Under the pieces are notes generated by a model. It was not told the DNA's origin. It was given only the letters and a program-made list of their open reading frames with translations, and searched no databases. Of a DNA stretch of 64,000 nt, positions 31,701-60,203 are shown piece by piece. Every line of letters starts with the position of its first letter. Within the stretch, counting starts at the first letter, position 1. The stretch spans positions 2,944,001 through 3,008,000 of the forward strand of contig CM000208.1 of NCBI GenBank assembly GCA_000002445.1, read 5' to 3'. The DNA is from Trypanosoma brucei (Eukaryota). A program made the position numbers and the translations under genes.

Positions 31701-34700
31701 CAACAGAACCTCAACAAAACGGAGCTTAGTCAGGGGGCTGCCGCTTTCAGCAGAAAATTCCCGCTTTAGAGACAGTGGGATGACGCCACGGAAAACAGCG
31801 GGAAACTTTTATAGTTATTAAAGCTGGTCCACCTTCGATACAGCATAAAGAACAATTTATAGGGGGTGCACACTGAAAACCCCCGCAGGTTTTTGCTTTC
31901 AAAAAAAAGAGAAAAAAACGGGTTGTCTACGCTTTCGGAAACTATGCGCAGTTCAACCTCGCCTACGGGTAAAAGGATGTGTTGATGGTGGCTGAAAAAG
32001 CGAATGTTGCTGTAACATCTGTTGTTTGCCTGGTGCGCATGAAAACGACCCATAGTGGAAACGGCTGTTTTTCATTCATCGCAGAAAGGAGGGTGTTAAA
32101 TAAAACAGCTGTGAGAGCGTGCGGGAAGATACACTTCAAAACTGCTAATGGATGGGACAAAGAAAAGCTCCGTGCTTTACTGAGGTAATTATTTGTAGCG
32201 CGCCCATTATCGATCCCTGTCCCAATATCATAAGGGGCGCCCGCCAGAAAAAAAGGAAGAAACCGCAGGGTTTTGAGGATACGTATGTGCAGTGTACCGC
32301 CAAGAATCCAACAGCCGCAAGGATGCTCATTCATAGACCCGGAAAACTCCCTATTTAGACGTTTTGCGAGCGCCAAACCGGCAAAATCAAAAGAATAATA
32401 AAGCAGATAAAACGGTAGCGAGGGAGAGATTGACTGCGAGAGGTTAAGGGTGACATTTACCGTCGCTTTAAAATTGCCTCCAAAGATGAGGCAGAGTTTT
32501 CTGAGATGTGGAGGAGATGGGCCACCATACAAGCCCTTGAATAAAACAAACCCACGGAGGACATGAGGTCACTTTTTACGATCACACAGGGCGCTGCAAC
32601 GTACAAGCTCACGGGCGAATGGCATTTGGGACGTCTCGAGGCTGTGCGCAGGAGGAGGCGTAGCTGCAACGACCAGGCCCACAACCATCGGGGACGCACT
32701 ACTAACTCCTTTGAAGGGGTGGAAACCGCAATGGAAGCAGAGGAAAACTATGCCCGCAGCGCGGCAGCGCTTGTAGAGCGCGCAAGAACATTTGATCCGG
32801 TGGACGAAAGCTCTACCACTAGTGAGCTGGAAAAAAAAGTTTCACAGCCAACTGAGCAGCAAAGGCCAGCAAACAGCATGTTGTCAGGGTGTGTGGTTTG
32901 GTGCGCCGCGTTCCTCAGGCATTGACGTTATACCCCATTTTCTATCGCAGCGGCAAATAAGCCGAGCATAGAACCCGAGAAGAACCTGAGATTCATGCAT
33001 GGTTTATTCGGTGATGATATGAACGGTACAGCAATGAGTTCAGGCAATGCAAAACCGAGGGATGCGGTACAGCAAGGAATGGAGCGTGTTGATCAACGGC
33101 CTTCGGAACAATACATTATACGTCTGGGGAAAAGACGGGGCACACGGCACTTGGATTGGGCACTTCGAACCCACCAAGCCTTACAGTGGCGAGAAAACAT
33201 GGCAAACGATGCCAAGACCCAAAAGCCATTGACTCTCATGCTGCAGCCGTTGAAAGAAGTATTGAAGCATGCTTAACAAACGACAAGATTAGGAAGGACA
33301 AGATTACGGACGCTCAATGCCGTAGTGTTAGCTGAACGGTGCTCCACGGAAGAAAGCGTTTACAGCCTTCCACTCTGGACTTATCCACGCAAGGATGAAC
33401 TACGACGTTGCTTTTAAGTGATTTTCAGTCTCCACTTCAAGCGGGGAGAGGGTGGAAAGCATGCAACCCCGGCAACGCATGCGATTGCCGAGATTTCGTA
33501 GCACGCAAAACAAGGTGTGCCCAAATAAACTCGACTGATATTTGTTTGGAAGGCGGCAAACACGAGGGCGACGGAACACCGCCCCATGTCAAACGCTAAA
33601 AGAGGATGCTTTTCAGACATAATAAACCGGCAATATCCTAGAAGTCATCCAATACCTGAATGGCTGAATTCAGTGGAGGGATGGTGCTCCGAAACCGAAA
33701 ATCAGGGTGCACTCCATACTTAAAGCTCCTTGGACGTTGGCTCCGGAAAATAAATTTCCCTTCCGTGGGAGGGTATGAAAGCAAACGCAACAGACGAATG
33801 GAGGAGGGTTCCTGCGCTGCAAAAAATAGGGATATTCAGTAAGAAGGACTGAAAAGTTTCAACAAATGAACTGGTGAGTTTAGGCAGTTAGTCCACTGCA
33901 GAAACGATAATCTTCGGCAACACGGAAAAACACAGAATTAAAGGGATACCGGAAGATGGGCATGCGGCCATCGTGCGGAAGCAGCTCCAATGGAAATGGG
34001 GTTGAATAAAGTACTGGAAACAATGAAAGACCGAGTCGCGCGGAGGATGGAATCCCGAGCCGCGTATGGAAGGGTGATTTTCACAGCCAGTAAAAAGAAT
34101 GAGGTGATTTCTATGCAGCTTATTTTCTCCCACCGTGTTGTTTGGAAAGAGAGTGCAATAGCAGATGAGATTGCAGTGAAAGAAGCAACTGCAGAAAGAC
34201 ACACCTAATATATAAAGTTGATACATTGGTGGGAAAAATAATGCAGAAGCACAAAGAGGAATACGCTACATTCGAAATTGGATTAGGGCGAAACGCGCAT
34301 CGAAGCGATCTTCTCGCCCGTATTCTGCCGGTACCCATGACGGCTCAACTCACTAAAGTGGAGAAAATCATCTTTTCATCATTCCGTGCCTACACACCCC
34401 TAAGCATCTTCGGTGATACCGAAGGAGGATCACCCATAATAAGCGCGGTCGTGAGTGCAAAGCCGCGGCAATCAACAGGAAGAGGCGGGAGGAAGACACC
34501 CTCCCCCCCAAATATATTTGAAAGAGTTGGGCACAACGTGGCCACACTTCCCGAACTTGTAGAAGAGAGGGTCTGTAACTCGGACACCTTCTGTGCATGC
34601 ACTAAACCCTTTTAATACAAGGCACGGTGGCACACCACATGGGAAGAACTGAAAAGACGTTTTGAGGTCCCTCGTGAATGCACCCGGCGCCATATACGGT

Positions 34701-34934
34701 GTCTCGTTCGCATAGCAGTCCTCAGAAGCGTGACCGGGGATTGTGTGCAGAGATGGGGGTGAGTGGGCAAAGATTGCAGAATAGAGGGGTAGAAAAAAAA
34801 ATCGAAGCAGGCGATAAGGATTCATCACTTAGAATTTACTGGGTCACGGTTAGACCAAATGTTTACCGACCAAGACTATGATCAAAGCAACATACGACCA
34901 ACAAACACCTGGATAAAACTGCTGGAGCCACGAA

Positions 34935-34970
34935 ACACACACACACACACACACACACACAGAGAGAGAG
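34935..34970. repeat. (AC)13(AG)5 compound microsatellite
   Basis: Seen directly. Confidence 0.9.
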
Positions 34971-35850
34971 GTGCGTGGCTACTAGAGATATAGGCTTGTC
35001 GAAATTAAACTGGCCACCAATGCGGACGCCGGCAGAAGCATGTCGAGGCCCCCCAAGTCCAGCAAATTAATATTCTTGTTCAAGCACCGGATTACCGCTA
35101 GGCGCCGCCAGGGGTTCGAAGAGAAGCGTGCTTGATCTCGACGTTGGTAACTGCAAATTTCAAATGCGTTGCAGAGAATGCAGTTGAAGGGTTGGCACCC
35201 GGTGTCTGGAGGACCATCACCCCCGCCACCAATCTGCGGCGATTGCCCAACTGATCCCGTGCCCCGGCTGCCAACCAATCCCTGCAGCTTCCCTCTCCAC
35301 TTATGATAGTACATTTCGCAACTCACATACGATCGGGTTGTGCGTTCCCTACTTTCAAGGTCCCTACTGCACAGTTTTTTGCGTACAGCTACCAACTGGC
35401 CTGAATAGAGTCTCTGGATATTGACATTGAAATACAAAAACTGCCTACCCTTTATTATGGTAAACTCACCGACCCGTGATATTCGGGCGTCGAACATTCA
35501 CTGCGGAATCAAAAGTCACTTTACCACTAAGCACCACATCCATTGAGCCTTTTTAAAGGGGGGATGCCGACCTCCCCGCGGGTGCAGACGCCCACGGCAC
35601 CGCAATGATCATTTTGTTGACACCAGAGAATAATGTCACTACGTAAAAAGGCAAGGGTGTAGAATGTAGCACGAGTATTAAGCGATAAAAATAATTTCAG
35701 AACCAATTTCCATTCACTTCCCTCCCTTTGTCCGCAACCAAAAAAATTATAGGCAATATATATATTTCTTCATAACTACACATATGTCGCCCCCCTCCCC
35801 CCAAGCAGTGGTCTCTCAGGCACGTGCTCATCGGTTGATCTATTTATCTG

Positions 35851-38652
35851 CTACAACCAGAGTTCGTTCCTATCTGGGTTTAGCGAGTGAGTGAGATCAT
35901 TCAATGTGTGAAGCTGAACCTCACCCTTCTCGAACCCAAATACCACCATACGGCTTTCCGCCTTTGCCTCTGGTGGCGTGTCAAAGCAAGTGCAAATACC
36001 GGCGTTCGTCTGGGAAAGGGATTGCGAAAAAACGGGCAGTTCCCTTTCCCCCTTCGCCAAATCAAGCAAATAAAACATACCACCTGCGTCCAAAACCCAG
36101 TACAGCCACTTGTCCATTAGACTGCAGCGAATTTCAGTAACACGATGAGTGCTAAGGGGAATAGATATCTGTGGACTACCCTCGGTGTGCAGATACACCC
36201 TAACACTGCCATCATCGTACCCGACCATAAGGATTCTGTTATCCACAGGATTGTATTGCACACACGACGGCACAACAATGGGTTGATTAAAAAATCGCGA
36301 GGAGGGCCCGTAAACTGATGGCGCGGCCACACTACCGAAACGGCTAATGTGACGCACCCCCTCGGCGCACGCCACGACGTAATGAGACGGATCGGACGGC
36401 ACAAAATCAATGGCAAATGCTTCCTGCGATAGCGATGCTGAGTTTGCACGATCGCTGCCTTTGGACGCCGCCAATAGCAGTCGAACGGTGGAGAACATGT
36501 TCAATCCATTTTCATTATCAATGATGGCGCCCTTCGCCTGATCCTTTTCATTCACGACCCAAAAGTGTGTCTCACCGAAGGCATCGAGTGAAACTAGTTG
36601 TTCAGCTTCATCTTTCCGTATGCCCGTTGCTGTGTTGTACCCTGCAACAGTAACCGAAACCAACGGTGCCAAGTGATTACCTGCTTGCCACGATGTTGAG
36701 AAGGAGGGAAGACGGAATCTATGTCCTTCATAACGGCCGGCTGTCGTATGATTTCTCTCCGGCTCGCGGGTGTCCCATAAAAAAACAGAACCGTCTTCAG
36801 ACCCACCATAAATCAAGTAGGGTTTTCGCGGACTTGCGGATATACACGTGATCACTGATGGTGAGACAAGTACCTTCTCTGGTGCAGTGTTGTCATATAT
36901 ACTCCAGAGGAGAATCACTGACATGTAACGATCCATCTCCTTGGAGGGCCCTTCCTCCACACACGATCCATGAAGCGCCACTATATAGGTTGGATTGCAG
37001 GGATTAAAGAGGACCTTGAGCACAGGCCTGTTCCGCGCGGCAGAAAAGCAGAAGGAGACACACGATGACGAGAACTGCGTCTCACTTTTTGCCTTTGTTG
37101 CATCCGAACCCACTCCCTCGTTCTCATCCATAGCAGCGCGGATGATGGGAAAGACGCGGTTCAGAAATCCCGCCAACAGCGCCCCGTCAGCAAACTGCTG
37201 TTGTTGGGTATTTTCTGTCACAGTGCCCCCGTCCGTTCCTCCCTTTCCCGTGGTAAATTGTGCCACGTTATTTGTATGCAACTCTGGGCATAATCCCAGG
37301 TCCCGGGGCACTTCCACCCCGCGGCTTTTTACCCGCACACGCTCCGCTTGCACTCCGACGTCCGTACGATCCTCCTCTGCGGGATTTTGTACGCCTACTT
37401 GTTTACGACCCGACTCCCCAAAGCTTCGGATGTACATGTCATATTGAGATTGCGGCGGCGCATCAACCAGGGCAGCCGCAACATCATCCATATCTACCAA
37501 CCGTCGCAGTGCTGTCGCACGCTGTAAATCTTTGTCAAACTGGGTGACATACCCCTGCCGCTGGAGGTCTTCCGCGGCGAACGCGCTTGTGCCCAGAGGC
37601 CCCGTCGTCGCTTTGGAGTCATTTCCCCGCTTGTTTCGCTTCTCCTCCCGCTCTTTTCTCCGCAGTTCACGGCGTTCAAGTGCTTCTCGTTCTCTCTCTT
37701 CTTCAGCACGGCGTCTCTCATTCTGTTGAGCTGCTTCCTTTGCTTCGTGCGCCGCCTGGCGAATAGCATGATTCTCAGCCGCCATCGCTGCTGCCAGTTC
37801 TTCTGTTTTCTGCCCAGCTACTAGCGCAGTTGTGCGTCCTCGTCTACTTTCCGGTGACACACCTTGCTCATTCCTGGGGGACGCCTGCTTGGCTCCCTTT
37901 TTGTTACTAAGAATATCTTGAAGGTCATCCCCGTCCTCGTCAATGGTCTCCTCCTTTTCCTTTTCCATTTCCTTCTTTCCTTTCTCTTTTTTCTCTTCCT
38001 TTTCCTTGGCCTTGCGCTCAGCACGTTCCTTTTCTTTACGTGCTCGACGTTCTTCCTCTGTCTCGTCACGCTTTGACTTTCGCTCCTTCTCCCCATCATT
38101 CCCAACCTCTTTTTCCTCCTTTTCTTTTTTCTCTTCCTTTTCCTTGGCCTTGCGCTCGGCACGTTCCTTTTCTTTACGTGCTCGACGTTCTTCCTCTGTC
38201 TCGTCACGCTTTGACTTTCGCTCCTTCTCCCCATCATTCCCAACCTCTTTTTCCTCCTTTTCTTTTTTCTCTTCCTTTTCCTTGGCCTTGCGCTCGGCAC
38301 GTTCCTTCTCCTTACGTGCCCGGCGCTCTTCCTCTGTCTCGTCACGCTTTGACTTTCGCTCCTTCTCCCCATCATTCCCAACCTCTTTTTCCTCCTTTTC
38401 TTTTTTCTCTTCCTTTTCCTTGGCCTTGCGCTCGGCACGTTCCTTCTCCTTACGTGCTCGACGTTCTTCCTCTGTCTCGTCACGCTTTGACTTTCGCTCC
38501 TTCTCCCCATCATTCCCAACCTCTTTTTCCTCCTTTTCTTTTTTCTCTTCCTTTTCCTTGGCCTTGCGCTCGGCACGTTCCTTCTCCTTACGTGCCCGGC
38601 GTTCTTCCTCTGTCTCGTCACGTTTCGACTTCGTGGTCGTGTCGTCACCCAT
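35851..38652 (-). CDS. WD40-repeat protein with an N-terminal array of five 46-aa K/E/R-rich tandem repeats, 933 aa
   Basis: The N-terminus is 5 copies of KERKSKRDETEEERRARKEKERAERKAKEKEEKKEKEEKEVGNDGE. The C-terminal half carries WD-like units (GGSEDGSVFLWD, VGYDDGSVRVYL). Confidence 0.8.
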   Translation of the reverse strand: MGDDTTTKSKRDETEEERRARKEKERAERKAKEKEEKKEKEEKEVGNDGEKERKSKRDETEEERRARKEKERAERKAKEKEEKKEKEEKEVGNDGEKERKSKRDETEEERRARKEKERAERKAKEKEEKKEKEEKEVGNDGEKERKSKRDETEEERRARKEKERAERKAKEKEEKKEKEEKEVGNDGEKERKSKRDETEEERRARKEKERAERKAKEKEEKKEKGKKEMEKEKEETIDEDGDDLQDILSNKKGAKQASPRNEQGVSPESRRGRTTALVAGQKTEELAAAMAAENHAIRQAAHEAKEAAQQNERRRAEEEREREALERRELRRKEREEKRNKRGNDSKATTGPLGTSAFAAEDLQRQGYVTQFDKDLQRATALRRLVDMDDVAAALVDAPPQSQYDMYIRSFGESGRKQVGVQNPAEEDRTDVGVQAERVRVKSRGVEVPRDLGLCPELHTNNVAQFTTGKGGTDGGTVTENTQQQQFADGALLAGFLNRVFPIIRAAMDENEGVGSDATKAKSETQFSSSCVSFCFSAARNRPVLKVLFNPCNPTYIVALHGSCVEEGPSKEMDRYMSVILLWSIYDNTAPEKVLVSPSVITCISASPRKPYLIYGGSEDGSVFLWDTREPERNHTTAGRYEGHRFRLPSFSTSWQAGNHLAPLVSVTVAGYNTATGIRKDEAEQLVSLDAFGETHFWVVNEKDQAKGAIIDNENGLNMFSTVRLLLAASKGSDRANSASLSQEAFAIDFVPSDPSHYVVACAEGVRHISRFGSVAAPSVYGPSSRFFNQPIVVPSCVQYNPVDNRILMVGYDDGSVRVYLHTEGSPQISIPLSTHRVTEIRCSLMDKWLYWVLDAGGMFYLLDLAKGERELPVFSQSLSQTNAGICTCFDTPPEAKAESRMVVFGFEKGEVQLHTLNDLTHSLNPDRNELWL
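37950..38640. repeat. 138-bp coding tandem repeat, about 5 copies, near-identical
   Basis: The unit begins TGCTCGACGTTCTTCCTCTGTCTCGTCACGCTTTGACTTTCG... at 38041, 38179, 38317, 38455 and 38593. It generates spurious long ORFs in other frames (37821..38648 -, 37943..38695 +, 38040..38654 +). Confidence 0.9.
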
Positions 38653-38875: not shown

Positions 38876-40663
38876 CTACGCCACATTATTCCAGCAACTC
38901 GCGATGTGACGTGCACTAACGCCGTGCTGGAAAAGAGCGTAGGAAAGCCATCGGATCTTTTCCCGGTTAGCCTTGTCAATCTCAGAACTGCAACCTGATG
39001 TTGCACTCGCTGCTCGCCTGTTGCCTCCAACCCCTCTTCGCCTACCGCTACCTGTAAGCAAACGTCCTCGATGAAGCACGCTCCGGAGGTGGTGCACAGA
39101 GCCTGGAAAAAATCCCAAAGAGGATAAAAACAACAGCACTTTCATTTCATCACTTGATAGAGTACGACGCGCGGACCCATAAGAGTCGTCTCCCACGCCT
39201 CGTTTAAGGGCATCTACGCCCCAGCAGTCGTAAAGAATCCACGCTAGGACAAGACGCACGTAACCCGAGGCGGATTCGGAACACCTGACGAGAGGACGTG
39301 CTGGACGATCGTTTGGGTTCCAAATTCCATTTCGCCGGTGCACTTTCCTCAGCATACACGATATTAGCGCGCAAAGACTCGCGTTGAACGGAGCAAAAAA
39401 TCGATAGTGGTAATTGACGCTCACATCCGCAAATGACAAATAACTGTCATGCTCCTGCACGACCTCATCCTCACTCGCAGCAGCGGCGAAGGCACCGCGT
39501 ACAGCTTCCCCCATCCGGTTCCATAGCGGTTTATATGGCATTTCGACGGGAGGTAGGCTACAGTAAGGAGAGGTCGTCCTGATGCAGCACAACATGTCTT
39601 CGTCTGGTCGCGTTGACAGTTCACCAAAGACTTCCTCCCATGGGAAAAGACGACCCCGAGCAAGCATATCATGTGTCCAATTGATCTCACTCCCTCCTGC
39701 GTCGGACGGCGTTAATGGGGGGACACCCGACAGCTGGGAGAGGGGGAATCGTGTCTCTTTTAACGCATCAAGCGTGACAGGTAAGGATGGCAGTACCTTC
39801 TGGCGACGCACTGCGACACGATCAGGACCTGCATGAAAAATTGAACCCTGTGTAAACATCTCCCCAACTCCAAACAGTGTGTAAGATACCCAGCGTGGAT
39901 GATACGCTTCTATGACGTAATCACAGTATCGTCGGAACTGCGCCGCCGTCATTTCAAACTTGTGGTCTTCGTGTCTCACGTTGTACGGTAAACCTGGCAA
40001 AGAGTGAGGAGCACCGTTCAACCGCGGTTGAATGCTACCTCCTAACTGACCGGTCACATTACTCTTGGCATTACCAATACCATTTCTATCACGATTGGGT
40101 GTTGTAATGACTACAACCCGCGCACCGCAAGCCGCGGCAAGGTGGGCAAAAAGGACCTCGGTGAAGAGGGGAACATCACTAACATTTATGTGTTCTAACA
40201 CTTCAATGGAGATAACGGCATCATATTGGTGTGATAACTGGGTGCGAGGAACCGCTTCTCCCAGTTGTGTAGCCTCTTTCCCGATTTCCCGTTCCCTTTC
40301 CTTGTCTTCTTCAAACGGAGTGAAGACCGGTGGTTTCGTGAGGTCCCCTTGAACGAACTCAACGTGCATGGGGTGCAGAAGTGCAACGGGGGATGAGAAT
40401 CCTAGTGCTGTTATCGCTTCTTTGGCTTCATGCAACGCCACTTTGTCCAAATCGATCGCGAGCGCGCGACTGAAAGAATGTTCTTGTAACTGGGAGGTCA
40501 GTATATGGCGTAGCAGTCCGCCACTCGAACAACCGGCATCAATGAACGAGCTACACCCATTCTCCCGTAGTAAAGTTTGCACTTTCTGCGCCCGCTGTAC
40601 GTATAATGGCGGGGAAAACGATGGAGTCCACTCGTGGTCACCGCCGTTCCCATATACGGACAT
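38876..40663 (-). CDS. HEN1-like small-RNA 3'-terminal 2'-O-methyltransferase (about 595 aa from the internal Met; ORF extends to 40834)
   Basis: SAM-binding motif I (FIDAGCSSGG). HEN1 metal-binding motifs ISIEVLEHI (compare EVIEHM) and VVITTPNRDRN (compare TPNxExN). The first 57 codons of the ORF are hydrophobic low-complexity and probably untranslated. The start MSVYGNGGDHEW lies at revcomp 40661-40663. Confidence 0.65.
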   Translation of the reverse strand: MSVYGNGGDHEWTPSFSPPLYVQRAQKVQTLLRENGCSSFIDAGCSSGGLLRHILTSQLQEHSFSRALAIDLDKVALHEAKEAITALGFSSPVALLHPMHVEFVQGDLTKPPVFTPFEEDKEREREIGKEATQLGEAVPRTQLSHQYDAVISIEVLEHINVSDVPLFTEVLFAHLAAACGARVVVITTPNRDRNGIGNAKSNVTGQLGGSIQPRLNGAPHSLPGLPYNVRHEDHKFEMTAAQFRRYCDYVIEAYHPRWVSYTLFGVGEMFTQGSIFHAGPDRVAVRRQKVLPSLPVTLDALKETRFPLSQLSGVPPLTPSDAGGSEINWTHDMLARGRLFPWEEVFGELSTRPDEDMLCCIRTTSPYCSLPPVEMPYKPLWNRMGEAVRGAFAAAASEDEVVQEHDSYLSFADVSVNYHYRFFAPFNASLCALISCMLRKVHRRNGIWNPNDRPARPLVRCSESASGYVRLVLAWILYDCWGVDALKRGVGDDSYGSARRTLSSDEMKVLLFLSSLGFFPGSVHHLRSVLHRGRLLTGSGRRRGVGGNRRAASATSGCSSEIDKANREKIRWLSYALFQHGVSARHIASCWNNVA

Positions 40664-42171
40664 TTGAGCGCCTGCATGAAGCGCAGGGGCCGTCAACACG
40701 AACGAGAAGATGATTGAGGAAAGGTGGGGGCGGGAGAACAAAAGTAAATGAGGGCCAACTAAAAAAATATTAATATTGACAGAGAATGCCGCAATAAGTG
40801 AGAGGGAATACAATAATGCATACAGGACGAACAAATAAAGCGAACGGTGCTGTCAGTTAGCAGTGATGGGAGCCCATTCTCACCATCAGCTAGGGAGAAA
40901 TAATGCCGCCCTGGACCGCCGGACGGAGACAAGACTGAACGAAAACAAAAACACATACAAGGGGGCGCTAATGTAAAACGATACACATGCAAAAACCGAA
41001 GGGGAGGAATCCCCCATTAGGATGATTTGGCGTGATGACGGGAGGCGCGTTTGTCCGAAAGACGCACGACCCCCAGAAAAAGAGGGTGAGAAAGAAGACA
41101 ACAACGACAAAATTGAATAGCGTTAAAGCAGAAAGGTGTGTTTTTGTGTTTTTTTTGTGTGCGATGATGGACTAAAGTATTGAAGTGAAAAATTTACAAG
41201 CAGGAGTTTGACCGGCATGCCACATCCCGTCTCATATCCCGTCGGTGTTACTTCACCCCTCGCGTGCTGAACACAAAAACAAAAGCTGTTGGGGTGCACA
41301 ACCAATCACCTTGACAAATATATATATGTATATAAAATATCCAACTAAAGCAACACACCATACAAACTGATAAAAGTGGAAAGATAACATAAATAAGCGT
41401 ATTAATAATTTCATTGCCGCCGAATACGGAAGGTCGATGAGGAAAGGACGGAGTGACGCGAAACGTTGACTGGATTCATTTTTATTCACCACAACTTGAC
41501 CATTCCGGTGGAAAGATCTTAACAAACAGGCAAACTGCTCCATACTCCAAAAGGTCACCCGCCGAGCCCCAATGATGCACCGCGCCATCCCCGCTAAAAC
41601 CCATAAGTGAGCCTCGGCGTCACACGCTCAAGGGAGTTATAAACCAAACAAACATACGCCACCACCCTCACAAAGTTATTTGGAGGCATCAATGAAGCGA
41701 AGACCTGAATTGTTTACCAAGTGCAAACAATCGACATTTCCTTATTCGCCGTGTCCCGCTCACGGCACGCGAGAGGTGGTGAATCTCCGAAAACAAAAAA
41801 AAAACAAAAAAGGAAAAACAAAACAAAAACGTCGCCAAGATCAGTAGCAAAAAACGATGGGTCTCAATCACTCACTGGAAAAGTAGCAGCAAGATAATTT
41901 CAGCAGTTGCACACACAGGAGCGTCCTGACATCCGCATAGACCTACCTTGTACTTTTATTCCCTACCCATGTTTTTTTTTCATCTGTTCTCCCTCCTTTC
42001 CCATGTCAGCAACGATGTTGAACGTAATAGTTTCACCGATGGAGGATCCTTCCCCGACATCAATAGTGATGTGCCACCGCTGTATTGGCATGATGGACGC
42101 GTGCACACACAGACACACACACACACACACACATCATTAGTGATGTAGACACTGCACATCCCCAAAAAGGT

Positions 42172-45100
42172 TTACATACCTCCTTGACCCAAGGGTGCTA
42201 TCGGGTCGTAGAAGCGTTGGCCACGCGAAAGATATGGAGGCACAAAATTCATCATGAACCCCTCATCCTCCCTTAGCTTTTTTGTCGAGTAATGTGCTCC
42301 TTCTGGAGCTCTCCCAGGTCCTGTGGGGTAACACGGGAAGGGAGAAACATCATGCATGTACGGAAAGGTTCCCCCCAAAGGCATTGCGGGTGGCGCTGTG
42401 CAATGGTTTCGCAGAGTGCCTACATTCCTAAAACCAACCCGCATAAGCGGAGTTCCACGTAATAACTGGTTCCGTGTTGACATTGAATTCGCTGTGGGTT
42501 TTCCGTGGACTTGACTCCCCGCTCCTCCCAGCCATGCACCCCCATCTGTGCAATTGGTATGTTGCAAAGGATTTGCGGGAGCTGCGGGTGACAGGGATGT
42601 AGTGGGAGGAGGGCAACTCACAGGGAGTGGACCGGGCACAGTCTTCACCGAATGATAGGAAGGGTGCTGCTGCCTTGGCTGCTGGTTCTTCAGAACTCCA
42701 AGACCAGGATGGGAGATATAAGCATTGTCAGATGGAGTCGACAGTTGGCTGCTTCTCCCTTCAAATTCGTCATTGCTTCCGAGTACCCTTTCCTGGGAGT
42801 CGAAAAGAAACTGTGGTTCCAATACTTGTTGTACATTGGGAACGCAGAAAAATGTTGGTTGCGAACACTGTTTGCAGCTTGTTAGAGCCACACGTGGTCT
42901 TACCGGCAAATGTTCCGGACAGTAACGCTGCACATAGTACAAAGTCTGGCCGAAGAGTTCATGGAGAATGCTGTGCCCCGTCATGTCTACACATCTGTTG
43001 TACGCTGCGGCATCCACCAAATAGTGGCCCAGTGCCCCAGAGAATTGCGGTTCGCGTGTTACACTGCCCGTGACACCGCTACCAAGCCCGCTGCTCGGGC
43101 CCCGAGAAGTCGGCAGAGATTGCGCAAGCTTCGCCGATCCCATTTTAAAAAGAACGAGACCCTCCCGAAAAGCACGATAAATACGCTGAAGGTGGTTGCG
43201 GCAAACGCCCCGACACACACTTGAACCCCACCGCAGCGGATCCATGACATTCATAGTTCGAAGGGGAAAGTTAACTGTGGTTGTCACGGGGCCCGATGCT
43301 CGTCCGCCATCGTCCGCGTGGCCGCGGCTGACGGCATGTTCCTTTCTCGCTTCAGGCGTGAAGCTCTCCGGAGTGTTGCTGCTGGGGTGCGATTTGTTAG
43401 CCTGGGCGCAGGGTGGGAAGTGCCCCGCCTTTCCCCGTTGAGGACGGTGACTTTCCTGTGATAGCATCCTCTTTAATTCCCTGGGAGTTATGAGCTGCTT
43501 AGCACGTCGGCGAAGGCAATGCCCCAACGCCTCCTGACCTTCGGCTGTTAGACCAAACACAGCTGAGCCGCCAGGTTGTTGGAAGTGCTCCACCTGTGAC
43601 TCAACAAGATCGAGGTCTAATGGCACATTATTTATTTTGTCGCACGGAACAGGACCAAACAACGTGAGGCAGTAACTTTCAAAGTCAAAATAACTGAAAT
43701 ATTTGAGGAAGCGCGCAAATAACTGAAGCGGCGAGATGTGTTGATATTCTCCACGCTGCCTCTCCTCCAGATGTTTTCCGTCGCCTTCACCGCCTCGCTC
43801 TTCCCGTTCCACATCTTCAAGAAACTCAACAGTGTTTATCATAGAAATAATCATCACAGTAGCCGCGTAGGAGGATATGTACCCTCCCTGGCCACTGAGA
43901 ACATGCGCCTCGTAGCAGCACCACGCTTTCATCAGCAGCAGAGTTCGCTTCAAAAGGTGGTTACATCCGATCTTCATGTCCATCTCGTGCAAAAAACGTA
44001 TGCAACTGACACCCCCAAGTTGCCCTACCGTTATATCGTAGCTGCTTCCGTCCATTACAAGCTTTAAGACACGAACTTCAGCAACAACAACAGTGTCGAC
44101 ATACACAGACTTGTTGTTTTCCCGAAGGTAGTCCGCCACGCTCGAGAGCAATTCACCACCCGCAACAGTGGTCGCTTGAGACGATGTGCCGCTGATGCTA
44201 CTGCTGCAACTACTTCCAGCTGCGCCATCAGAAGAATCAGCATGGGCTTCGCTTTGCGTCTCAATCTTGGTTGGATTCAAAAGCCCGTCCACCTCAATCG
44301 TCATATCGTTATCACCGTCGGGCAGCACAGTCCCTGATGCCAGACTACCAAAAACATAGTACCGTTTTTCCCCATAATTTACCCCCTTTCCCCATGCTAC
44401 ATTATTGATGGCATCATTGAGGTACCCCGCGAGACGGTTCAGTTGCATTCGACGGTGCAGAGCCATCTCCTCAACATTTTTCGACAGGGGCGCAATAACA
44501 TTACTGTCGATCAGCTGGCAGAGCGCCAGCGACACCTCAGGAGTGAAGGTGTAGCTACTAGAATGACTACTAGGAGGGTCGCAGTGTTTCGTTGCTATTT
44601 GTAAACTATCGGCACCGGGACAAAGAAGATCCTTCTGACTCTGGAGGTCGTTTTCCTTCTTTGTTGTGGCGGTAGCACAAGTTTCTCCTACGGGCAATGG
44701 TTTCAAACGCTCCCTCGCCGGACACGGCTGGACTTCACACATTCCTTGCGTTTGAAAATGTATGTCCCCACGTTGCCTTGACTCAACAACTGCACCCCTG
44801 TCCGCCCTTTCCCCGTCCCCCTCCGACGTGCCTCTGCACTTCCCTGGAGGGAGTGGAGGAGATGAGGCAAATGCATGTTCTTCCGTTGGGAGTGATTGTT
44901 TTCCTCCTTCGCCATGGGGTGATGTGCTTGCTGAGCAGTCTGTGGCCGGTGCGGCCAAAGTGGTGCCAAAGTTGCGTGGAGTGGCCTGTGGGTCACCTTT
45001 TGTATCATCTGAGCGGTCACAGTACTGCTCAATGTGGGGTTCCCCCTCCTGAGACAGTGCCATACGCTCGTTTGAGTGTATTGTAGCCGTATCGTCCACT

Positions 45101-45627
45101 TGGCTGTCGTTTTGAGCTTGTCCATATGAACTTAACGTATCTCCACAGGTTGTGGAGCTGTGTTTAGGGGTATCGTCCTCCGTCACCTCCAGGCCTTCCT
45201 TTCGGGACCCAGGAAGTAGTGAAACGTGTAACCTCCCTTCTTTATCCTCCTTACTATGTCGTACACCTACCCCAAGGGGTGGGACGGTGACACAAACACC
45301 CTTTTGGTTTGCACTCACCTCGCTGGGCTGTTGCTGGTTGGAAGTGTGCTCATGTTCGTTCACACTGTTACCTGCAACGTTGGAAACTGTCTCTCCTTCA
45401 CAACGGGTTGCATCTGTGGCAGCCGATCCCCCAGCTGTTTGCTGCCCAGGTTTTTTATCGCTGACAGAGACGATTGCGCCTTTCCCCTTCAAAGACCGTC
45501 GGTTTTGTGTCTGGGTGTTCCTTTTCACGGACATAACAATACTACAGTACAACAATAACAACAACAATACAGACGAATTCTGTAGAAACAAGCGTAAAAG
45601 AAACAACAAAACCGTACTCGTGATCAC
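42172..45627 (-). CDS. Cid1-family non-canonical poly(A) polymerase / terminal uridylyltransferase-like nucleotidyltransferase, about 1120-1151 aa
   Basis: Pol-beta nucleotidyltransferase signature YVFGSLASGTVLPDGDNDMTIEVD (GS...DxD). PAP/OAS1-associated segment GGYISSYAATVMIISMI (compare Cid1 GTLSSYGYVLMVLYYL). Long low-complexity flanks. The true start may be the Met at about 45534. Confidence 0.8.
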   Translation of the reverse strand: MITSTVLLFLLRLFLQNSSVLLLLLLYCSIVMSVKRNTQTQNRRSLKGKGAIVSVSDKKPGQQTAGGSAATDATRCEGETVSNVAGNSVNEHEHTSNQQQPSEVSANQKGVCVTVPPLGVGVRHSKEDKEGRLHVSLLPGSRKEGLEVTEDDTPKHSSTTCGDTLSSYGQAQNDSQVDDTATIHSNERMALSQEGEPHIEQYCDRSDDTKGDPQATPRNFGTTLAAPATDCSASTSPHGEGGKQSLPTEEHAFASSPPLPPGKCRGTSEGDGERADRGAVVESRQRGDIHFQTQGMCEVQPCPARERLKPLPVGETCATATTKKENDLQSQKDLLCPGADSLQIATKHCDPPSSHSSSYTFTPEVSLALCQLIDSNVIAPLSKNVEEMALHRRMQLNRLAGYLNDAINNVAWGKGVNYGEKRYYVFGSLASGTVLPDGDNDMTIEVDGLLNPTKIETQSEAHADSSDGAAGSSCSSSISGTSSQATTVAGGELLSSVADYLRENNKSVYVDTVVVAEVRVLKLVMDGSSYDITVGQLGGVSCIRFLHEMDMKIGCNHLLKRTLLLMKAWCCYEAHVLSGQGGYISSYAATVMIISMINTVEFLEDVEREERGGEGDGKHLEERQRGEYQHISPLQLFARFLKYFSYFDFESYCLTLFGPVPCDKINNVPLDLDLVESQVEHFQQPGGSAVFGLTAEGQEALGHCLRRRAKQLITPRELKRMLSQESHRPQRGKAGHFPPCAQANKSHPSSNTPESFTPEARKEHAVSRGHADDGGRASGPVTTTVNFPLRTMNVMDPLRWGSSVCRGVCRNHLQRIYRAFREGLVLFKMGSAKLAQSLPTSRGPSSGLGSGVTGSVTREPQFSGALGHYLVDAAAYNRCVDMTGHSILHELFGQTLYYVQRYCPEHLPVRPRVALTSCKQCSQPTFFCVPNVQQVLEPQFLFDSQERVLGSNDEFEGRSSQLSTPSDNAYISHPGLGVLKNQQPRQQHPSYHSVKTVPGPLPVSCPPPTTSLSPAAPANPLQHTNCTDGGAWLGGAGSQVHGKPTANSMSTRNQLLRGTPLMRVGFRNVGTLRNHCTAPPAMPLGGTFPYMHDVSPFPCYPTGPGRAPEGAHYSTKKLREDEGFMMNFVPPYLSRGQRFYDPIAPLGQGGM

Positions 45628-52507: not shown

Positions 52508-52510
<3 letters not shown>

Positions 52511-52548
<38 letters not shown>
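52511..52548. repeat. (AT)19 microsatellite
   Basis: Seen directly. Similar (AT)n runs occur at 53063-53082, 60695-60718, 62836-62858, 51073-51090, 51941-51960 and 54179-54196. Confidence 0.95.
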
Positions 52549-52553
<5 letters not shown>

Positions 52554-57635: not shown

Positions 57636-60203
57636 CTACAGCGTTGGCATGCAGGAGTAAAAACTCTGAGCCCCACCTCGGTAGAAAACCCTTGGGGCTA
57701 AAGTTGCGGGATACGCCTGAAACGGATGTGCAAAACCATCAGAAGGTGTGGGACTCATAATTTCCCCACGACCCCGCGTGTACACGAGCCCTGCCGAGTA
57801 CATGTCCCGCCCATCCGACATTGAGCGTTGAGGTGGAGACATCATGCCTGGGAAACATGCCTGACTACTGATTGCCAGGCCGGGTGTGCCCATGGGAAGT
57901 TGTTGTGGTTGCTGCGGCGGCGGCGGCGGCGCACGCGTCATAATCATCGTGTCGGTTGGGGAACCGATATAACCGTAACCGCAGTGTGCACCACCAGTTG
58001 TTGCAAGTGGGAGCATAGGTTGACCACCAAGCGCAACAGCACCTGGAGAAGGTTGCGGATATGTATTGCCAGGGATCATCGAGTGTTCTACCAAACTCAT
58101 GGAGTTACTGTGTATCCCCTGCGTGTTACTCATGCTGCTGTGGCCCGTCGAACTTTGTCTTGGTTTCCGACTTCCTCCGCGACCCATACTACTCGGAGAA
58201 TGTGAACCATTAAAGTCACAGGGGAAACTTCCACCATACACAGCACCCGCCTCTCCCCACAGTGGCATGCCCATGCACTCCATTTTCTGTACAAGGTGCT
58301 GTCCATATACAGAGCAACGTATGGTGTGGAGGTGCGGCCTTATCTGCTCCGCAATGTGCTGCTGCTGTGCCTTTGTCACTTGCTGGAGTAAACGTTGGAC
58401 GACATAGTTTGCGTACTGATCCTGCATCATAAGCACGAGGTAGTTGCCATCTTCTGAAGCACCTAAAGGATGGGTGAGCGTCTCTACAACTTGCTGCAGT
58501 TCTTCTGCATTTGCCTTGATAATAGTTTTTTCGGCAACATTAGACGCAAATTTGCTACACGAAAGGGCATATACGTGCGGTATTAACTGAGTCACGAAGC
58601 GTTGTCGTAATTCCTCAGGCGCATTCAAAAGAGCATACTGCACAACATAATTTCCATACTGGTCCATCACGTACTCATGTACATTCTCGAGCACGGCTTC
58701 TAACATGGGGCGAATGTTCACTCCATGTGCTGTAGAACACCTCTCGAAAACGCACTGCAACACACGGCAACCGTACGGGTGACGCGAAAGCGCCTTTAAG
58801 TGCGGCATGAAGGAGTCCACCAACAGCTGCGTCTTCTCTGGGATGACTTCAATGAGTTTCTGGGCTACGTGGTTAGCGTTTTGGTCAAATATACATTCTA
58901 CAAGGCAATCCTTTAGCTCGAAGAGCACCTCCTCCCGCTTCTCCGGTGAGGCCTTTTCCAACATCTTCTGGATTACGCGGCAGCCGTACATCTGAAACGA
59001 GTACTCCTTTAACCTTCCGCTAACTTGCTTTATGAGTCGTTTGCACATGTCACTCTCAGTAGGTAGCATGTCCAACAACTTCTGTAAAACATAATTTCCA
59101 AATACGTCAATGATCAATTCATGTGTACGTGGAAACACCTCGTTGAAGATCGGTTCGATGTTCTCCGGATTATTTAGGAGACGTTGTACACAGCGGCTTC
59201 CGTCCTGATCCTTGCAAAGGGAAACAACCTGCAACCTGAATTCGTCAGAGACAGCAAGGGCATGATTCGATTCAAGATTATCGCGTGCTGTTGTCGGTTC
59301 TTCGTTTGTGAACCTGTCACCACCAACTTCACCGTTACTAGGCTGCTTAAATGCACCGTTCTTTTGTCCATAGTTTGACGTAGAACGGTTCCTGCTGCTG
59401 CCTGGTGCCCGTCGTGAGAGTGTATCAACTTGCTGAGGCTGCTGCCCACTGGATGTGTCCTGTTGCGTCAACGAGCCGTTTTGCATTCCTTCGCCGTTGG
59501 CTTTCATATTCGCGAGGTCAACAGCACCAACGTTTACACTAAAAGAACCGCTACTACCGGGTGCTGCGGAGGGTGGCTCGAGGGAGCCCATGGCCGAATG
59601 AAGCCGCTTGAAACCTTCCGTCTCCCCTCCTGTGGGAGCGGCGTCCCGCGACCCCCTCCGCGGCGGTGAGGCGCTCCCGCTGTTCAGCCTCGCCACTTCG
59701 CCGCAGAGGTCATGCCTTGGCGTGCGCTCTCCTACTGAAGTTCCTACTGCTGTGGAGCCCGTCACTTTAGTTGTGCCGCTGTCACCGACAACTCCGACAC
59801 CGTCTTGCGGTTGTGTGTTGGTGGCGGAGGTGCCACGTCTTCCTGCACCACTGCCACGTCTTCCGAAGTTATTGGAGCGTAGCGGAACAAGCATGCGCGG
59901 GTCACGGGGGTATTTGGAGTAATATTCCCGGTGATATTCCTCTGCATATCGGTACTCCTCCTCCGGGGGAACGTCCGCCTCAAGGCTACCAATACAAAGC
60001 GTCCCATCGGATGAAAACATGGTGAGAACCATAGGCGCCGTTTCAGCCCGCCGCACGTCACGCGGGTCGGCAAGTAAAGCCCCGCTGCCACTGAATATAT
60101 CGTCGGCTCCAGCAAGCCAATCTGCTTCACCGCTGCCTGGTGGCGTGTTTGATGAGACGGGTTCGTCCCAACCAGACATGTTTCGTGCTGCAATCCGTTT
60201 CAA
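57636..60203 (-). CDS. Pumilio/PUF-family RNA-binding protein, 855 aa
   Basis: Eight consecutive PUF repeats recognisable by the aromatic-x-x-Q cores: FGNYVLQKLL, YGCRVIQKML, NHVAQKLIEV, YGCRVLQCVF, GNYVVQYAL, ASNVAEKTI, ANYVVQRLL and YGQHLVQKM. Low-complexity S/G/Q/P-rich N- and C-terminal extensions. Confidence 0.9.
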   Translation of the reverse strand: MKRIAARNMSGWDEPVSSNTPPGSGEADWLAGADDIFSGSGALLADPRDVRRAETAPMVLTMFSSDGTLCIGSLEADVPPEEEYRYAEEYHREYYSKYPRDPRMLVPLRSNNFGRRGSGAGRRGTSATNTQPQDGVGVVGDSGTTKVTGSTAVGTSVGERTPRHDLCGEVARLNSGSASPPRRGSRDAAPTGGETEGFKRLHSAMGSLEPPSAAPGSSGSFSVNVGAVDLANMKANGEGMQNGSLTQQDTSSGQQPQQVDTLSRRAPGSSRNRSTSNYGQKNGAFKQPSNGEVGGDRFTNEEPTTARDNLESNHALAVSDEFRLQVVSLCKDQDGSRCVQRLLNNPENIEPIFNEVFPRTHELIIDVFGNYVLQKLLDMLPTESDMCKRLIKQVSGRLKEYSFQMYGCRVIQKMLEKASPEKREEVLFELKDCLVECIFDQNANHVAQKLIEVIPEKTQLLVDSFMPHLKALSRHPYGCRVLQCVFERCSTAHGVNIRPMLEAVLENVHEYVMDQYGNYVVQYALLNAPEELRQRFVTQLIPHVYALSCSKFASNVAEKTIIKANAEELQQVVETLTHPLGASEDGNYLVLMMQDQYANYVVQRLLQQVTKAQQQHIAEQIRPHLHTIRCSVYGQHLVQKMECMGMPLWGEAGAVYGGSFPCDFNGSHSPSSMGRGGSRKPRQSSTGHSSMSNTQGIHSNSMSLVEHSMIPGNTYPQPSPGAVALGGQPMLPLATTGGAHCGYGYIGSPTDTMIMTRAPPPPPQQPQQLPMGTPGLAISSQACFPGMMSPPQRSMSDGRDMYSAGLVYTRGRGEIMSPTPSDGFAHPFQAYPATLAPRVFYRGGAQSFYSCMPTL

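What the first reader, a model, noticed from the sequence alone, without database searches (positions are those of the whole stretch)
38876..45627. HEN1-like methyltransferase immediately next to a Cid1-family TUTase/ncPAP
HEN1 2'-O-methylates small-RNA 3' ends specifically to block 3' tailing by terminal nucleotidyltransferases. Here a HEN1-type methyltransferase (motifs FIDAGCSSGG, SIEVLEHI, TPNRDRN) and a 1151-aa Cid1-type nucleotidyltransferase (GS...DGDND, PAP-associated core) are adjacent and co-directional, with a PUF protein in the same unit. Adjacency is not regulatory evidence in a polycistronic genome. The pairing does nominate this nucleotidyltransferase as a candidate siRNA-tailing enzyme antagonised by HEN1 in an RNAi-competent trypanosome.
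Basis: partly seen in the sequence, partly recalled or inferred. Interest (0 to 1): 0.5.

Follow-up and report, generated by a model that had tools for sequence, protein, structure and literature searches.

The report
Trypanosome HEN1 beside an uncharacterised RNA-tailing enzyme
The two genes are real: one is the already known Trypanosoma brucei small-RNA methyltransferase HEN1, the other an unstudied but apparently active RNA 3'-tailing enzyme. They sit side by side because the whole gene block is conserved, and nothing found here shows that they work against each other.

Summary
The window is T. brucei chromosome 10. HEN1 is at 38876-40663(-), 595 aa. It has the AdoMet motif and all four HEN1 metal ligands, and its only matches among solved structures are HEN1 enzymes. 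It is the TbHEN1 already reported as needed for siRNA 3' modification. The neighbour, 42172-45534(-), 1120 aa, is annotated 'hypothetical, conserved'. It has an invariant GS/DxD/D catalytic triad and a predicted fold like GLD-2, TUT7, Cid1 and TbTUT4. It is not a canonical Cid1/PAP-associated protein or a known editing TUTase. It belongs to the PAP-OAS1 family (PF26180) plus DUF3648, shared with Leishmania, Bodo and plants. It lacks the Cid1 UTP-selecting histidine.

Synteny gave a clear result. The order DnaJ, EF-hand, NTase, [HEN1], WD40 holds in T. theileri, T. conorhini, T. cruzi and Phytomonas. In RNAi-negative T. cruzi, HEN1 is a decayed pseudogene at the same site, while the NTase remains intact. 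So the NTase does not depend on HEN1 or RNAi, and the adjacency is inherited gene order inside one 64-kb same-strand cluster.

The idea that this NTase tails siRNAs is neither supported nor excluded; I put it at about 0.12. Interest is low to moderate.

The parts
38876..40663 (-). TbHEN1 coding sequence (595 aa plus stop): small-RNA 3'-terminal 2'-O-methyltransferase
   Evidence: 99% identical to the T. b. gambiense protein that UniRef names 'Small RNA 2'-O-methyltransferase'. A profile of the trypanosome orthologues hits only HEN1 enzymes among solved structures (4xcx 1.6e-14, 3jwh 1.2e-13, 3htx 8e-9). Start codon corrected.
39824..40624 (-). HEN1 methyltransferase domain (about aa 14-280). 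It includes the FSPPLYVQR motif, AdoMet motif I FIDAGCSSGG (40517-40546), metal ligands E154/E157/H158 in EVLEH (40190-40204) and H234 in RHEDHKFEM (39962-39964)
   Evidence: Residue-by-residue alignments to human HENMT1 and bacterial Hen1. These residues are invariant in the 8 aligned sequences, i.e. 7 Trypanosoma species or subspecies. Coordinates verified.
38879..39823 (-). HEN1 C-terminal extension (about aa 281-595). It is found only in the Trypanosoma orthologues recovered, with no known domain
   Evidence: No Pfam hit. Conserved only among Trypanosoma orthologues. The structure model was unusable (pLDDT 35).
40664..42171 (-). Intergenic region: NTase 3'UTR and HEN1 splice-acceptor/5'UTR with polypyrimidine tracts
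   Evidence: No ORF longer than 111 aa. Pyrimidine tract and AG just upstream of ATG 40663.
42172..45534 (-). Coding sequence of the 1120-aa nucleotidyltransferase (XP_823467.1, 'hypothetical protein, conserved')
   Evidence: Exact match. Orthologues across Kinetoplastea.
43135..44547 (-). Conserved NTase core (about aa 330-800): palm plus PAP/OAS1-like substrate-binding lobe. Includes GS 396-397 and DGDND 406-410 (44305-44349), the third Asp D500 (44035-44037), and MDPLRWGSSVCRG 764-776, where S771 occupies the position of Cid1 His336
   Evidence: Residues invariant in alignments A1 and A2. AlphaFold model pLDDT 75, pTM 0.78. Foldseek top hits are GLD-2, TUT7, TUT1, CutA, Tailor, TbTUT4, MEAT1, URT1 and Cid1. 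Profile hits to Trf4 (1.3e-9), TUT4, GLD2 and Cid1.
42745..43044 (-). DUF3648 domain (aa 831-930) with a conserved CxxCx6C motif (aa 887-897)
   Evidence: Pfam PF12364, E = 1.4e-22. Cysteines invariant.
44548..45534 (-). Poorly conserved N-terminal region of the NTase (aa 1-329)
   Evidence: Alignment A1 shows almost no conservation before F330.
57636..60203 (-). It is not part of any unit specific to the pair
   Evidence: Pfam PUF 1e-47. The PUF2 gene ID comes from PMC4545788. Identifying this ORF as PUF2 rests on my recollection of neighbouring gene IDs.

Best explanation
These are two independent genes that happen to be neighbours in a conserved polycistronic block of T. brucei chromosome 10. 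Gene 1 is TbHEN1. It is an animal-type HEN1, with an N-terminal methyltransferase domain and a metal-dependent active site. It 2'-O-methylates the 3' end of siRNAs and so protects them from tailing and trimming; the function comes from the literature, and the sequence here fits it. Gene 2 is an uncharacterised terminal RNA nucleotidyltransferase found throughout the kinetoplastids. It belongs to the PAP-OAS1 family (PF26180 plus DUF3648), the family that includes the plant NTP2/6/7/8-type enzymes. Its Pol-beta catalytic triad is intact, so it most likely adds untemplated nucleotides to RNA 3' ends (inferred). Its substrates and nucleotide preference are unknown. It is kept wherever HEN1 and RNAi are absent, so its main role is a general one, not specific to siRNAs. 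The adjacency is inherited gene order, not functional coupling.
For: HEN1 identity. The metal ligands E154/E157/H158/H234 align with those of human HENMT1, and only HEN1 enzymes are hit in the PDB. Barnes et al. 2012 (PMC3359990) state that the T. brucei HEN1 homologue is required for siRNA 3' modification, is dispensable for RNAi, and is absent from L. braziliensis. NTase: the triad G396-S397, D408/D410 and D500 is invariant in 30 sequences from kinetoplastids to plants. The predicted fold matches ncPAPs and TUTases. The profile matches Trf4, TUT4, GLD2, Cid1 and URT1. Distribution: 763 relatives at E <= 1e-3. They include Leishmania (Viannia), Leptomonas, Bodo, Phytomonas, Angomonas, Chlorella and land plants. 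Synteny: T. theileri has DnaJ, EF-hand, NTase, HEN1, WD40. T. conorhini has EF-hand, NTase, HEN1. T. cruzi has DnaJ, EF-hand, an intact NTase, a decayed HEN1 relic, then WD40; the relic has stops, a frameshift and deletions, with E = 8e-22 against T. conorhini HEN1. Phytomonas has PUF, EF-hand, NTase, an empty gap, then the next genes. All the ORFs of 200 aa or more with family or orthologue support are on one strand; the few plus-strand ORFs lie inside them.
Against: A HEN1 gene directly next to a terminal nucleotidyltransferase is unlikely a priori (about 0.3% nominal), and the order holds across the genus. Barnes et al. found no NTase among the genes that co-segregate with RNAi. Whichever enzyme tails unmethylated siRNAs must therefore be a general one, so retention of this NTase in T. 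cruzi does not exclude it. Plant enzymes that I assign to the same family (NTP6/NTP7) are reported to tail pre-miRNAs (PMC13030794). No activity, localisation or knockout data for the T. brucei protein could be found.
Confidence: 0.75

Rival explanations
1. One reading: this NTase is the enzyme that tails (uridylates) unmethylated siRNAs in T. brucei and is antagonised by HEN1, as HESO1 and URT1 are by HEN1 in plants.
For: The catalytic triad is intact and the fold is TUTase/ncPAP-like. Relatives in plants appear to be the NTP2/6/7/8 clade, of which NTP6 and NTP7 cytidylate pre-miRNAs (my assignment of that clade to PF26180 is inferred from names and from memory). The adjacency with HEN1 is conserved in Trypanosoma. 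No NTase co-segregates with RNAi, so a general enzyme must do the tailing. From memory, Shi et al. 2014 (Eukaryot Cell 13:77) reported shortened siRNAs, some with a non-templated U, in hen1-/- cells; no responsible enzyme was named. That paper could not be retrieved here.
Against: The adjacency is explained by block synteny that also exists without HEN1. The NTase is kept intact where HEN1 has decayed. The Cid1/TUT4/TUT7 UTP-selecting His is replaced by Ser or Ala in Trypanosoma and by Asn in the family consensus, and the best-scoring Cid1 chain has Asn at that position, where I recall wild-type Cid1 has His336. T. brucei has proven cytosolic U-specific enzymes, TUT3 and TUT4 (established knowledge; the TUT4 structure 2ikf appears). 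Those are more obvious candidates. Polycistronic transcription makes co-direction uninformative.
Confidence: 0.12
2. The NTase is a catalytically dead scaffold (pseudo-enzyme) retained for protein or RNA binding.
For: Long disordered, poorly conserved N- and C-terminal regions. Weak Pfam scores for NTP_transf_2 and MTPAP-like_central.
Against: G-S, D-x-D and the third Asp are invariant from Bodo to angiosperms, and they align exactly with the Trf4 active site. The catalytic strands are modelled at pLDDT about 87-97.
Confidence: 0.05
3. The NTase is a mitochondrial RNA-processing enzyme, unrelated to cytoplasmic or nuclear small RNAs.
For: The first 25 residues are basic with no acidic residue. 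Kinetoplastids have several mitochondrial NTases (established knowledge).
Against: The N-terminus is not conserved among orthologues, and acidic residues appear early in T. congolense and T. cruzi. There is no sequence match to RET1, RET2 or MEAT1. One plant relative, NTP8, is reported in P-bodies. No targeting predictor was available, so this is untested.
Confidence: 0.07

Closest known systems
HEN1 / HENMT1 small-RNA 3'-terminal 2'-O-methyltransferases (human HENMT1 4xcx, bacterial Hen1 3jwh, Arabidopsis HEN1 3htx); specifically TbHEN1 of T. brucei
   Same: AdoMet motif I, the FxPPLYxQR motif, and the four metal ligands (E-x-x-E-H and the His of DHKFE). The methyltransferase domain is N-terminal, as in animal HENMT1. 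The T. brucei homologue is reported as required for siRNA 3' modification (PMC3359990).
   Different: There is a roughly 315-aa C-terminal extension with no known domain, seen only in the Trypanosoma orthologues recovered. There are no dsRNA-binding or La-like domains as in plant HEN1. Several public annotations misname it ('T. brucei spp.-specific protein', 'methyltransferase type 12').
Cid1 / Trf4 / GLD-2 / TUT4-7 non-canonical poly(A)/poly(U) polymerases (TENTs)
   Same: Pol-beta palm with hGS, DxD and a third Asp. Two-lobe fold with a PAP/OAS1-type substrate-binding domain. Also shares the conserved DP...R motif of the nucleotide-recognition region.
   Different: Only 12-18% identity. No Pfam PAP_assoc hit. 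The Cid1 His336 position is Ser or Ala. There is an extra DUF3648 domain and about 330 aa of disordered N-terminus.
Plant PAP-OAS1 family nucleotidyltransferases (PF26180 + PF22600; I take these to be the Arabidopsis NTP2/NTP6/NTP7/NTP8 clade)
   Same: Closest relatives outside the kinetoplastids (E about 1e-20 to 1e-25). They share the same family-specific motifs (AEVxVLK, QxGG, KAWCxYE, DPLR) and long disordered tails.
   Different: Plants lack DUF3648. The equivalence with the named Arabidopsis genes was not tested directly. Reported activities (pre-miRNA cytidylation by NTP6/7, P-body location of NTP8) are from a review and may not transfer.
Characterised T. brucei TUTases (RET1, RET2, MEAT1, TUT3, TUT4)
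   Same: Same superfamily and overall fold (2ikf and 3hj1 appear among the Foldseek hits).
   Different: No significant direct sequence match, so this protein is none of those four solved enzymes; TUT3 has no solved structure and was not compared.

Membership tests
HEN1 small-RNA 2'-O-methyltransferase | Rossmann-type AdoMet-binding motif I (hhDhGCG-like) | tested here: met
   FIDAGCSSGG (aa 40-49) aligns with VADLGCGDTS of human HENMT1 and VIDLGCGQGN of bacterial Hen1. Pfam Methyltransf_23 scores 27.0 bits, at its cut-off.
HEN1 small-RNA 2'-O-methyltransferase | Four HEN1-specific metal ligands: Glu, Glu and His in IE(V/L)IEH, and His in (D)HKFEW | tested here: met
   E154, E157 and H158 (SIEVLEHI) and H234 (RHEDHKFEM) align column for column with CIELIEHL and SDHKFEW of 4xcx. 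They are invariant in all 8 aligned sequences, i.e. 7 Trypanosoma species or subspecies. Mapping onto HENMT1 E132/E135/H136/H181 uses my recollection of the published numbering.
HEN1 small-RNA 2'-O-methyltransferase | Closest solved relatives are HEN1 enzymes rather than generic class-I methyltransferases | tested here: met
   The profile search returns only HENMT1, bacterial Hen1 and Arabidopsis HEN1 at E <= 0.01.
HEN1 small-RNA 2'-O-methyltransferase | Methylates the 3'-terminal ribose of small RNAs in vivo | not testable with these tools
   Literature only: PMC3359990 reports the requirement for siRNA 3' modification as an unpublished observation. Shi et al. 2014 is recalled from memory and was not retrievable.
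Cid1/Trf4/GLD-2-type non-canonical terminal nucleotidyltransferase superfamily | hG[GS]...[DE]h[DE]h plus a third carboxylate on the palm | tested here: met
   FGS 395-397, DGDND 406-410 and D500. Invariant in A1 and A2. Aligned to Trf4 VFGS...SDID.
Cid1/Trf4/GLD-2-type non-canonical terminal nucleotidyltransferase superfamily | Two-lobe fold (catalytic palm plus PAP/OAS1 substrate-binding lobe) | tested here: met
   The AF2 model (pTM 0.78) matches GLD-2, TUT7, TUT1, CutA, Tailor, TbTUT4, MEAT1, URT1 and Cid1 at E about 1e-7 to 1e-6, probability 1.0, target TM 0.45-0.6.
Cid1 family in the narrow sense (Pfam PAP_assoc, PF03828; U-selective) | PAP-associated domain detectable by Pfam | tested here: not met
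   No PAP_assoc hit at E <= 1. Only DUF3648 and sub-threshold MTPAP-like_central and NTP_transf_2. Precomputed annotation gives PF26180 PAP-OAS1.
Cid1 family in the narrow sense (Pfam PAP_assoc, PF03828; U-selective) | UTP-selecting histidine (Cid1 His336; the His of DPFDLNHN in TUT4) | tested here: not met
   The equivalent residue is S771 in T. brucei and Ala in the other Trypanosoma orthologues. It is Asn in the family consensus DPLrpsNNLgR, and the best-scoring Cid1 chain (4fhx) has Asn there (DPFEISNNVGR), where I recall wild-type Cid1 has His336. Kinetoplastid TUTases select UTP by other means, so this does not exclude U addition.
Characterised kinetoplastid TUTases with solved structures (RET1, RET2, MEAT1, TUT4) | Significant direct sequence similarity to one of these enzymes | tested here: not met
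   phmmer of the full protein against all PDB sequences finds none of 5i49, 2b4v, 3hj1 or 2ikf even at E <= 10.
PAP-OAS1 family (PF26180; plant NTP2/6/7/8-type) | Significant sequence similarity across the palm and PAP-OAS1 lobe, with shared family motifs | tested here: met
   386 relatives at E <= 1e-10. Plant members carry PF26180 + PF22600. Shared invariant residues.
PAP-OAS1 family (PF26180; plant NTP2/6/7/8-type) | Orthology or co-clustering with Arabidopsis NTP6/NTP7 (AT3G51620, AT3G56320) specifically | not tested
   No Arabidopsis sequence was retrieved and the afdb50 library was unavailable. The link rests on transferred TAIR-style names and on memory.

The most novel reading that the evidence does not exclude
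The PAP-OAS1/DUF3648 nucleotidyltransferase next to TbHEN1 is the so far unidentified enzyme that adds non-templated nucleotides to unmethylated, AGO1-loaded siRNAs in T. brucei. If so, an ancient plant-and-kinetoplastid TENT family distinct from HESO1/URT1/Cid1 would be a small-RNA tailing family. The HEN1-NTase neighbourhood would then be a rare functionally meaningful gene pair in a trypanosome polycistron.
Probability: 0.12. Interest if true: 0.55.

Novelty: new member of a known kind. Interest (0 to 1): 0.3.

Why it matters
TbHEN1 is already known, so that half adds nothing new. The neighbour matters modestly. It is a conserved, apparently active terminal nucleotidyltransferase with no published function in any kinetoplastid. 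Its family has only hints of function in plants. The enzyme that tails unprotected siRNAs in trypanosomes has, to my knowledge, not been identified. This gene is one of a handful of candidates and can be tested directly by knockout plus small-RNA sequencing. The comparative result is a clean natural experiment: HEN1 decayed in place in RNAi-negative T. cruzi while the NTase was kept. It shows the NTase has a function independent of RNAi, and it dates HEN1 loss relative to the conserved gene order.

Tried and rejected
1. My first exact-sequence lookup of HEN1 failed because my start was one codon too long (40666 instead of 40663).
2. Retrieval of Shi et al. 2014 (TbHEN1 paper) by DOI and by a guessed PMC id failed. 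Searches for 'TbHEN1', 'HEN1 family methyltransferase' and HEN1+Tb927 returned only Barnes 2012.
3. Searches for gene IDs Tb927.10.1255x-1266x found nothing on the two genes. 'DUF3648' returned only an irrelevant virus paper. The exact gene IDs therefore remain unconfirmed.
4. The AlphaFold model of HEN1 from 8 sequences was unusable (pLDDT 35), so no fold search was run on it.
5. The afdb50 fold library was unavailable, so Arabidopsis NTP6/7/8 could not be tied in directly.
6. phmmer of the NTase against PDB gave only noise, such as BAFF/TNF ligands. The link to TENTs needed a family profile and a fold search.
7. No HEN1 relic was detected in the Phytomonas syntenic gap. Ancient loss and a Trypanosoma-specific insertion cannot be told apart.
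8. Rfam, tRNA and tandem-repeat scans found nothing relevant to the pair.
9. I considered and rejected an operon-like regulatory unit with the PUF gene. It is 12 kb away, with unrelated genes between, in a strand-uniform cluster.

Full report
**What is there**

The window is Trypanosoma brucei chromosome 10. The 1120-aa product of 42172-45534(-) is identical to XP_823467.1/EAN78639.1 of strain TREU927, on a contig of about 4.05 Mb. Their 5' extensions, from TTG and GTG, are pyrimidine-rich splice-acceptor or 5'UTR sequence. The true coding sequences are:
- 38876-40663(-), 595 aa
- 42172-45534(-), 1120 aa

All quoted motifs are present. The 1.5-kb spacer holds no credible ORF. All the ORFs of 200 aa or more with family or orthologue support are on the minus strand; the few plus-strand ORFs lie inside them. 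They encode a SNARE, a sugar-nucleotide transporter, a kinesin, two P-type ATPases, an NADH-dehydrogenase Fe-S subunit, a WD40 protein, an EF-hand protein, a DnaJ protein and a PUF protein. The PUF gene is at 57636-60203, 12 kb upstream of the NTase. It is probably PUF2, Tb927.10.12660. The gene ID comes from PMC4545788; assigning it to this ORF is my inference.

**The methyltransferase is HEN1, and it is already known**

The closest proteins are Trypanosoma orthologues that UniRef names 'Small RNA 2'-O-methyltransferase'. A single-sequence search of all solved structures finds human HENMT1, bacterial Hen1 and Arabidopsis HEN1 as its only hits below E = 0.01. A profile of the trypanosome orthologues returns nothing but those enzymes (1.6e-14, 1.2e-13 and 8e-9). 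The printed alignments show these matches:
- FSPPLYVQR with FKPPLYRQR of HENMT1
- motif I, FIDAGCSSGG
- SIEVLEH with CIELIEH
- RHEDHKFEM with SDHKFEW

E154, E157, H158 and H234 therefore occupy the four metal-ligand positions. These correspond to HENMT1 E132/E135/H136/H181 by my recollection of the published numbering. They are invariant in all 8 aligned sequences, i.e. 7 Trypanosoma species or subspecies.

Barnes et al. 2012 (PMC3359990) state three things about the T. brucei HEN1 homologue. [quoted passage not shown] Its deletion is compatible with robust RNAi. It is absent from L. braziliensis. From memory, Shi et al. 2014 (Eukaryot Cell 13:77) characterised TbHEN1 and found shortened siRNAs, some with a non-templated U, in hen1-/- cells. 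I could not retrieve that paper, so this point is unverified.

The C-terminal 315 aa or so are conserved only within Trypanosoma and have no known domain. A structure model was too poor to use.

**The neighbour is a real terminal nucleotidyltransferase, but not a canonical Cid1**

Pfam gives DUF3648 (1.4e-22) and only sub-threshold MTPAP-like_central and NTP_transf_2. There is no PAP_assoc hit. Precomputed annotation adds PF26180, 'PAP-OAS1'. The full protein has no significant direct match to any solved structure.

An exhaustive search found 763 relatives at E <= 1e-3 and 386 at E <= 1e-10. They fall into two groups:
- Orthologues with DUF3648 occur in T. congolense, T. grayi, T. cruzi, T. 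conorhini, Phytomonas, Angomonas, Leishmania (Viannia) species, Leptomonas and Bodo saltans.
- More distant members occur in Chlorella, ferns and angiosperms. These carry PF26180 + PF22600.

Across 30 of these sequences G396, S397, D408, D410, K491 and D500 are invariant. The family profile matches Trf4 (1.3e-9), TUT4, GLD-2, CutA, Cid1 and URT1, and FGS...DxD aligns exactly with the Trf4 active site. An AlphaFold model of residues 320-930 (pLDDT 75, pTM 0.78; catalytic strands at pLDDT about 87-97) retrieves GLD-2, TUT7, TUT1, CutA, Tailor, TbTUT4, MEAT1, URT1 and Cid1. These hits are at E about 1e-7 to 1e-6 with 12-18% identity.

The protein is therefore a divergent member of the non-canonical poly(A)/poly(U) polymerase superfamily, and its active site looks competent. 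At the position of the Cid1 UTP-selecting His336, T. brucei has Ser and the other Trypanosoma orthologues have Ala. The family consensus has Asn. The best-scoring Cid1 chain (4fhx) also has Asn there (DPFEISNNVGR), where I recall wild-type Cid1 has His336. Nucleotide preference cannot be read from the sequence, and the Cid1-style determinant for U is absent.

**Link to plants**

The plant relatives carry names transferred from the TAIR descriptions 'PAP/OAS1 substrate-binding domain superfamily' and 'nucleotidyltransferases'. From memory, those names belong to AT3G51620, AT3G56320 and AT3G61690. A 2026 review groups NTP2, NTP6, NTP7 and NTP8 in one clade. It reports that NTP6 and NTP7 cytidylate pre-miRNAs and that NTP8 is in P-bodies (PMC13030794; also PMC11518768). 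This makes a small-RNA-related activity plausible for the family. I did not show directly that those Arabidopsis genes are the relatives found here.

| Species | Gene order at the locus |
|---|---|
| T. theileri | DnaJ, EF-hand, NTase (1320 aa, 43% identical), HEN1, WD40, then the Fe-S subunit further on |
| T. conorhini | EF-hand, NTase, HEN1 |
| T. cruzi (RNAi-negative) | DnaJ, EF-hand, intact NTase (1230 aa, 42% identical, all catalytic residues kept), 2.7-kb gap, WD40 |
| Phytomonas | Same block, with a 2.1-kb gap and no detectable HEN1 remnant |

The T. cruzi gap holds a decayed HEN1 at L001 15023-15732:
- It has two reading frames, several stop codons and an internal deletion.
- EVLEH is degraded to EEYLAH, TPNRDRN to THTLPYN, and RHxDHKFEM to RLVGHNFEM.
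- The C-terminal half is missing.
- It scores E = 8e-22 against T. conorhini HEN1 and 4e-6 against TbHEN1.

L. (Viannia) species, which have RNAi but lack HEN1, keep the NTase.

Three conclusions follow:
- The HEN1-NTase adjacency is part of a long conserved block and predates the split between the T. brucei and T. cruzi lineages.
- The NTase is retained regardless of HEN1 or RNAi.

**What this means for the hypothesis**

Retention of the NTase shows that it has a role independent of RNAi. That alone does not exclude it as the siRNA-tailing enzyme. Barnes et al. found only AGO1, DCL1, DCL2, RIF4 and RIF5 co-segregating with RNAi, so the tailing enzyme must be a general-purpose one. The adjacency itself carries little weight. 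It reflects one historical arrangement, kept by general synteny, in a genome where neighbours are co-transcribed regardless of function.

Known cytosolic U-specific enzymes (TUT3 and TUT4; established knowledge) are more obvious candidates. The Cid1-type U determinant is missing here. The 'independent neighbours' reading stands at about 0.75. The remainder goes to a pseudo-enzyme or mitochondrial role.

**Novelty and interest**

HEN1 is already known. The NTase is a new, unstudied member of a known superfamily. The pairing is a lead that can be tested, not a discovery. The T. cruzi HEN1 relic is a tidy minor observation that I could not find reported. Overall interest is about 0.3.

Noticed in passing
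L001 15023-15732 (T. cruzi contig MKKV01000205, between the NTase and the WD40 gene): A decayed HEN1 pseudogene at the syntenic site. It has stops, a frameshift and an internal deletion, and the C-terminal half is gone. E = 8e-22 against T. conorhini HEN1. I found no report of it in the papers I could search.
   Followed up: yes
L002 8135-9133 and 9132-9953 (T. conorhini contig MKKU01000647): HEN1 is split over two reading frames and annotated as a 332-aa protein plus a 138-aa ORF. It carries RHVGHKFEM instead of RHxDHKFEM. The same 'VGH' is seen in the T. cruzi relic, which suggests that inactivation began before these lineages split. The frameshift could also be an assembly error.
   Followed up: partly
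window 37978-38631: A 138-bp tandem repeat, 4.7 copies at 97% identity, inside the 5' part of the WD40 gene (35851-38652, minus strand). It encodes a 46-aa Lys/Glu/Arg-rich unit. The T. cruzi orthologue is about 100 aa shorter.
   Followed up: no
window 50000-57600: A 7.6-kb AT-rich stretch (GC 0.32-0.38, against about 0.5 elsewhere) with no credible ORF, no tandem repeat and no Rfam hit. It lies between the PUF gene and the DnaJ gene. It may be a very long 3'UTR or intergenic region.
   Followed up: no
window 30400-35850: An ORF-poor 5.4-kb stretch where GC skew turns positive (32-34 kb). T. theileri and T. cruzi have an extra gene of about 264-270 aa in this interval, and it has no detectable counterpart in the T. 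brucei window.
   Followed up: partly
window 15445-18183 and 19133-21895: Two tandem P-type cation ATPase genes with near-identical Pfam profiles on the minus strand. Each has an internal 211-aa antisense ORF that is presumably spurious.
   Followed up: no
window 42745-43044 (NTase aa 831-930, DUF3648): DUF3648 contains an invariant CxxCx2Px2FC motif (aa 887-897). It might be half of a zinc-binding site. This domain was seen only in the kinetoplastid members and is absent from the plant members examined.
   Followed up: no
Public annotations of the orthologues: Apparent misannotations. T. b. gambiense HEN1 is labelled 'T. brucei spp.-specific protein'. The T. cruzi and T. conorhini NTase orthologues are labelled 'DNA primase small subunit'.
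   Followed up: no
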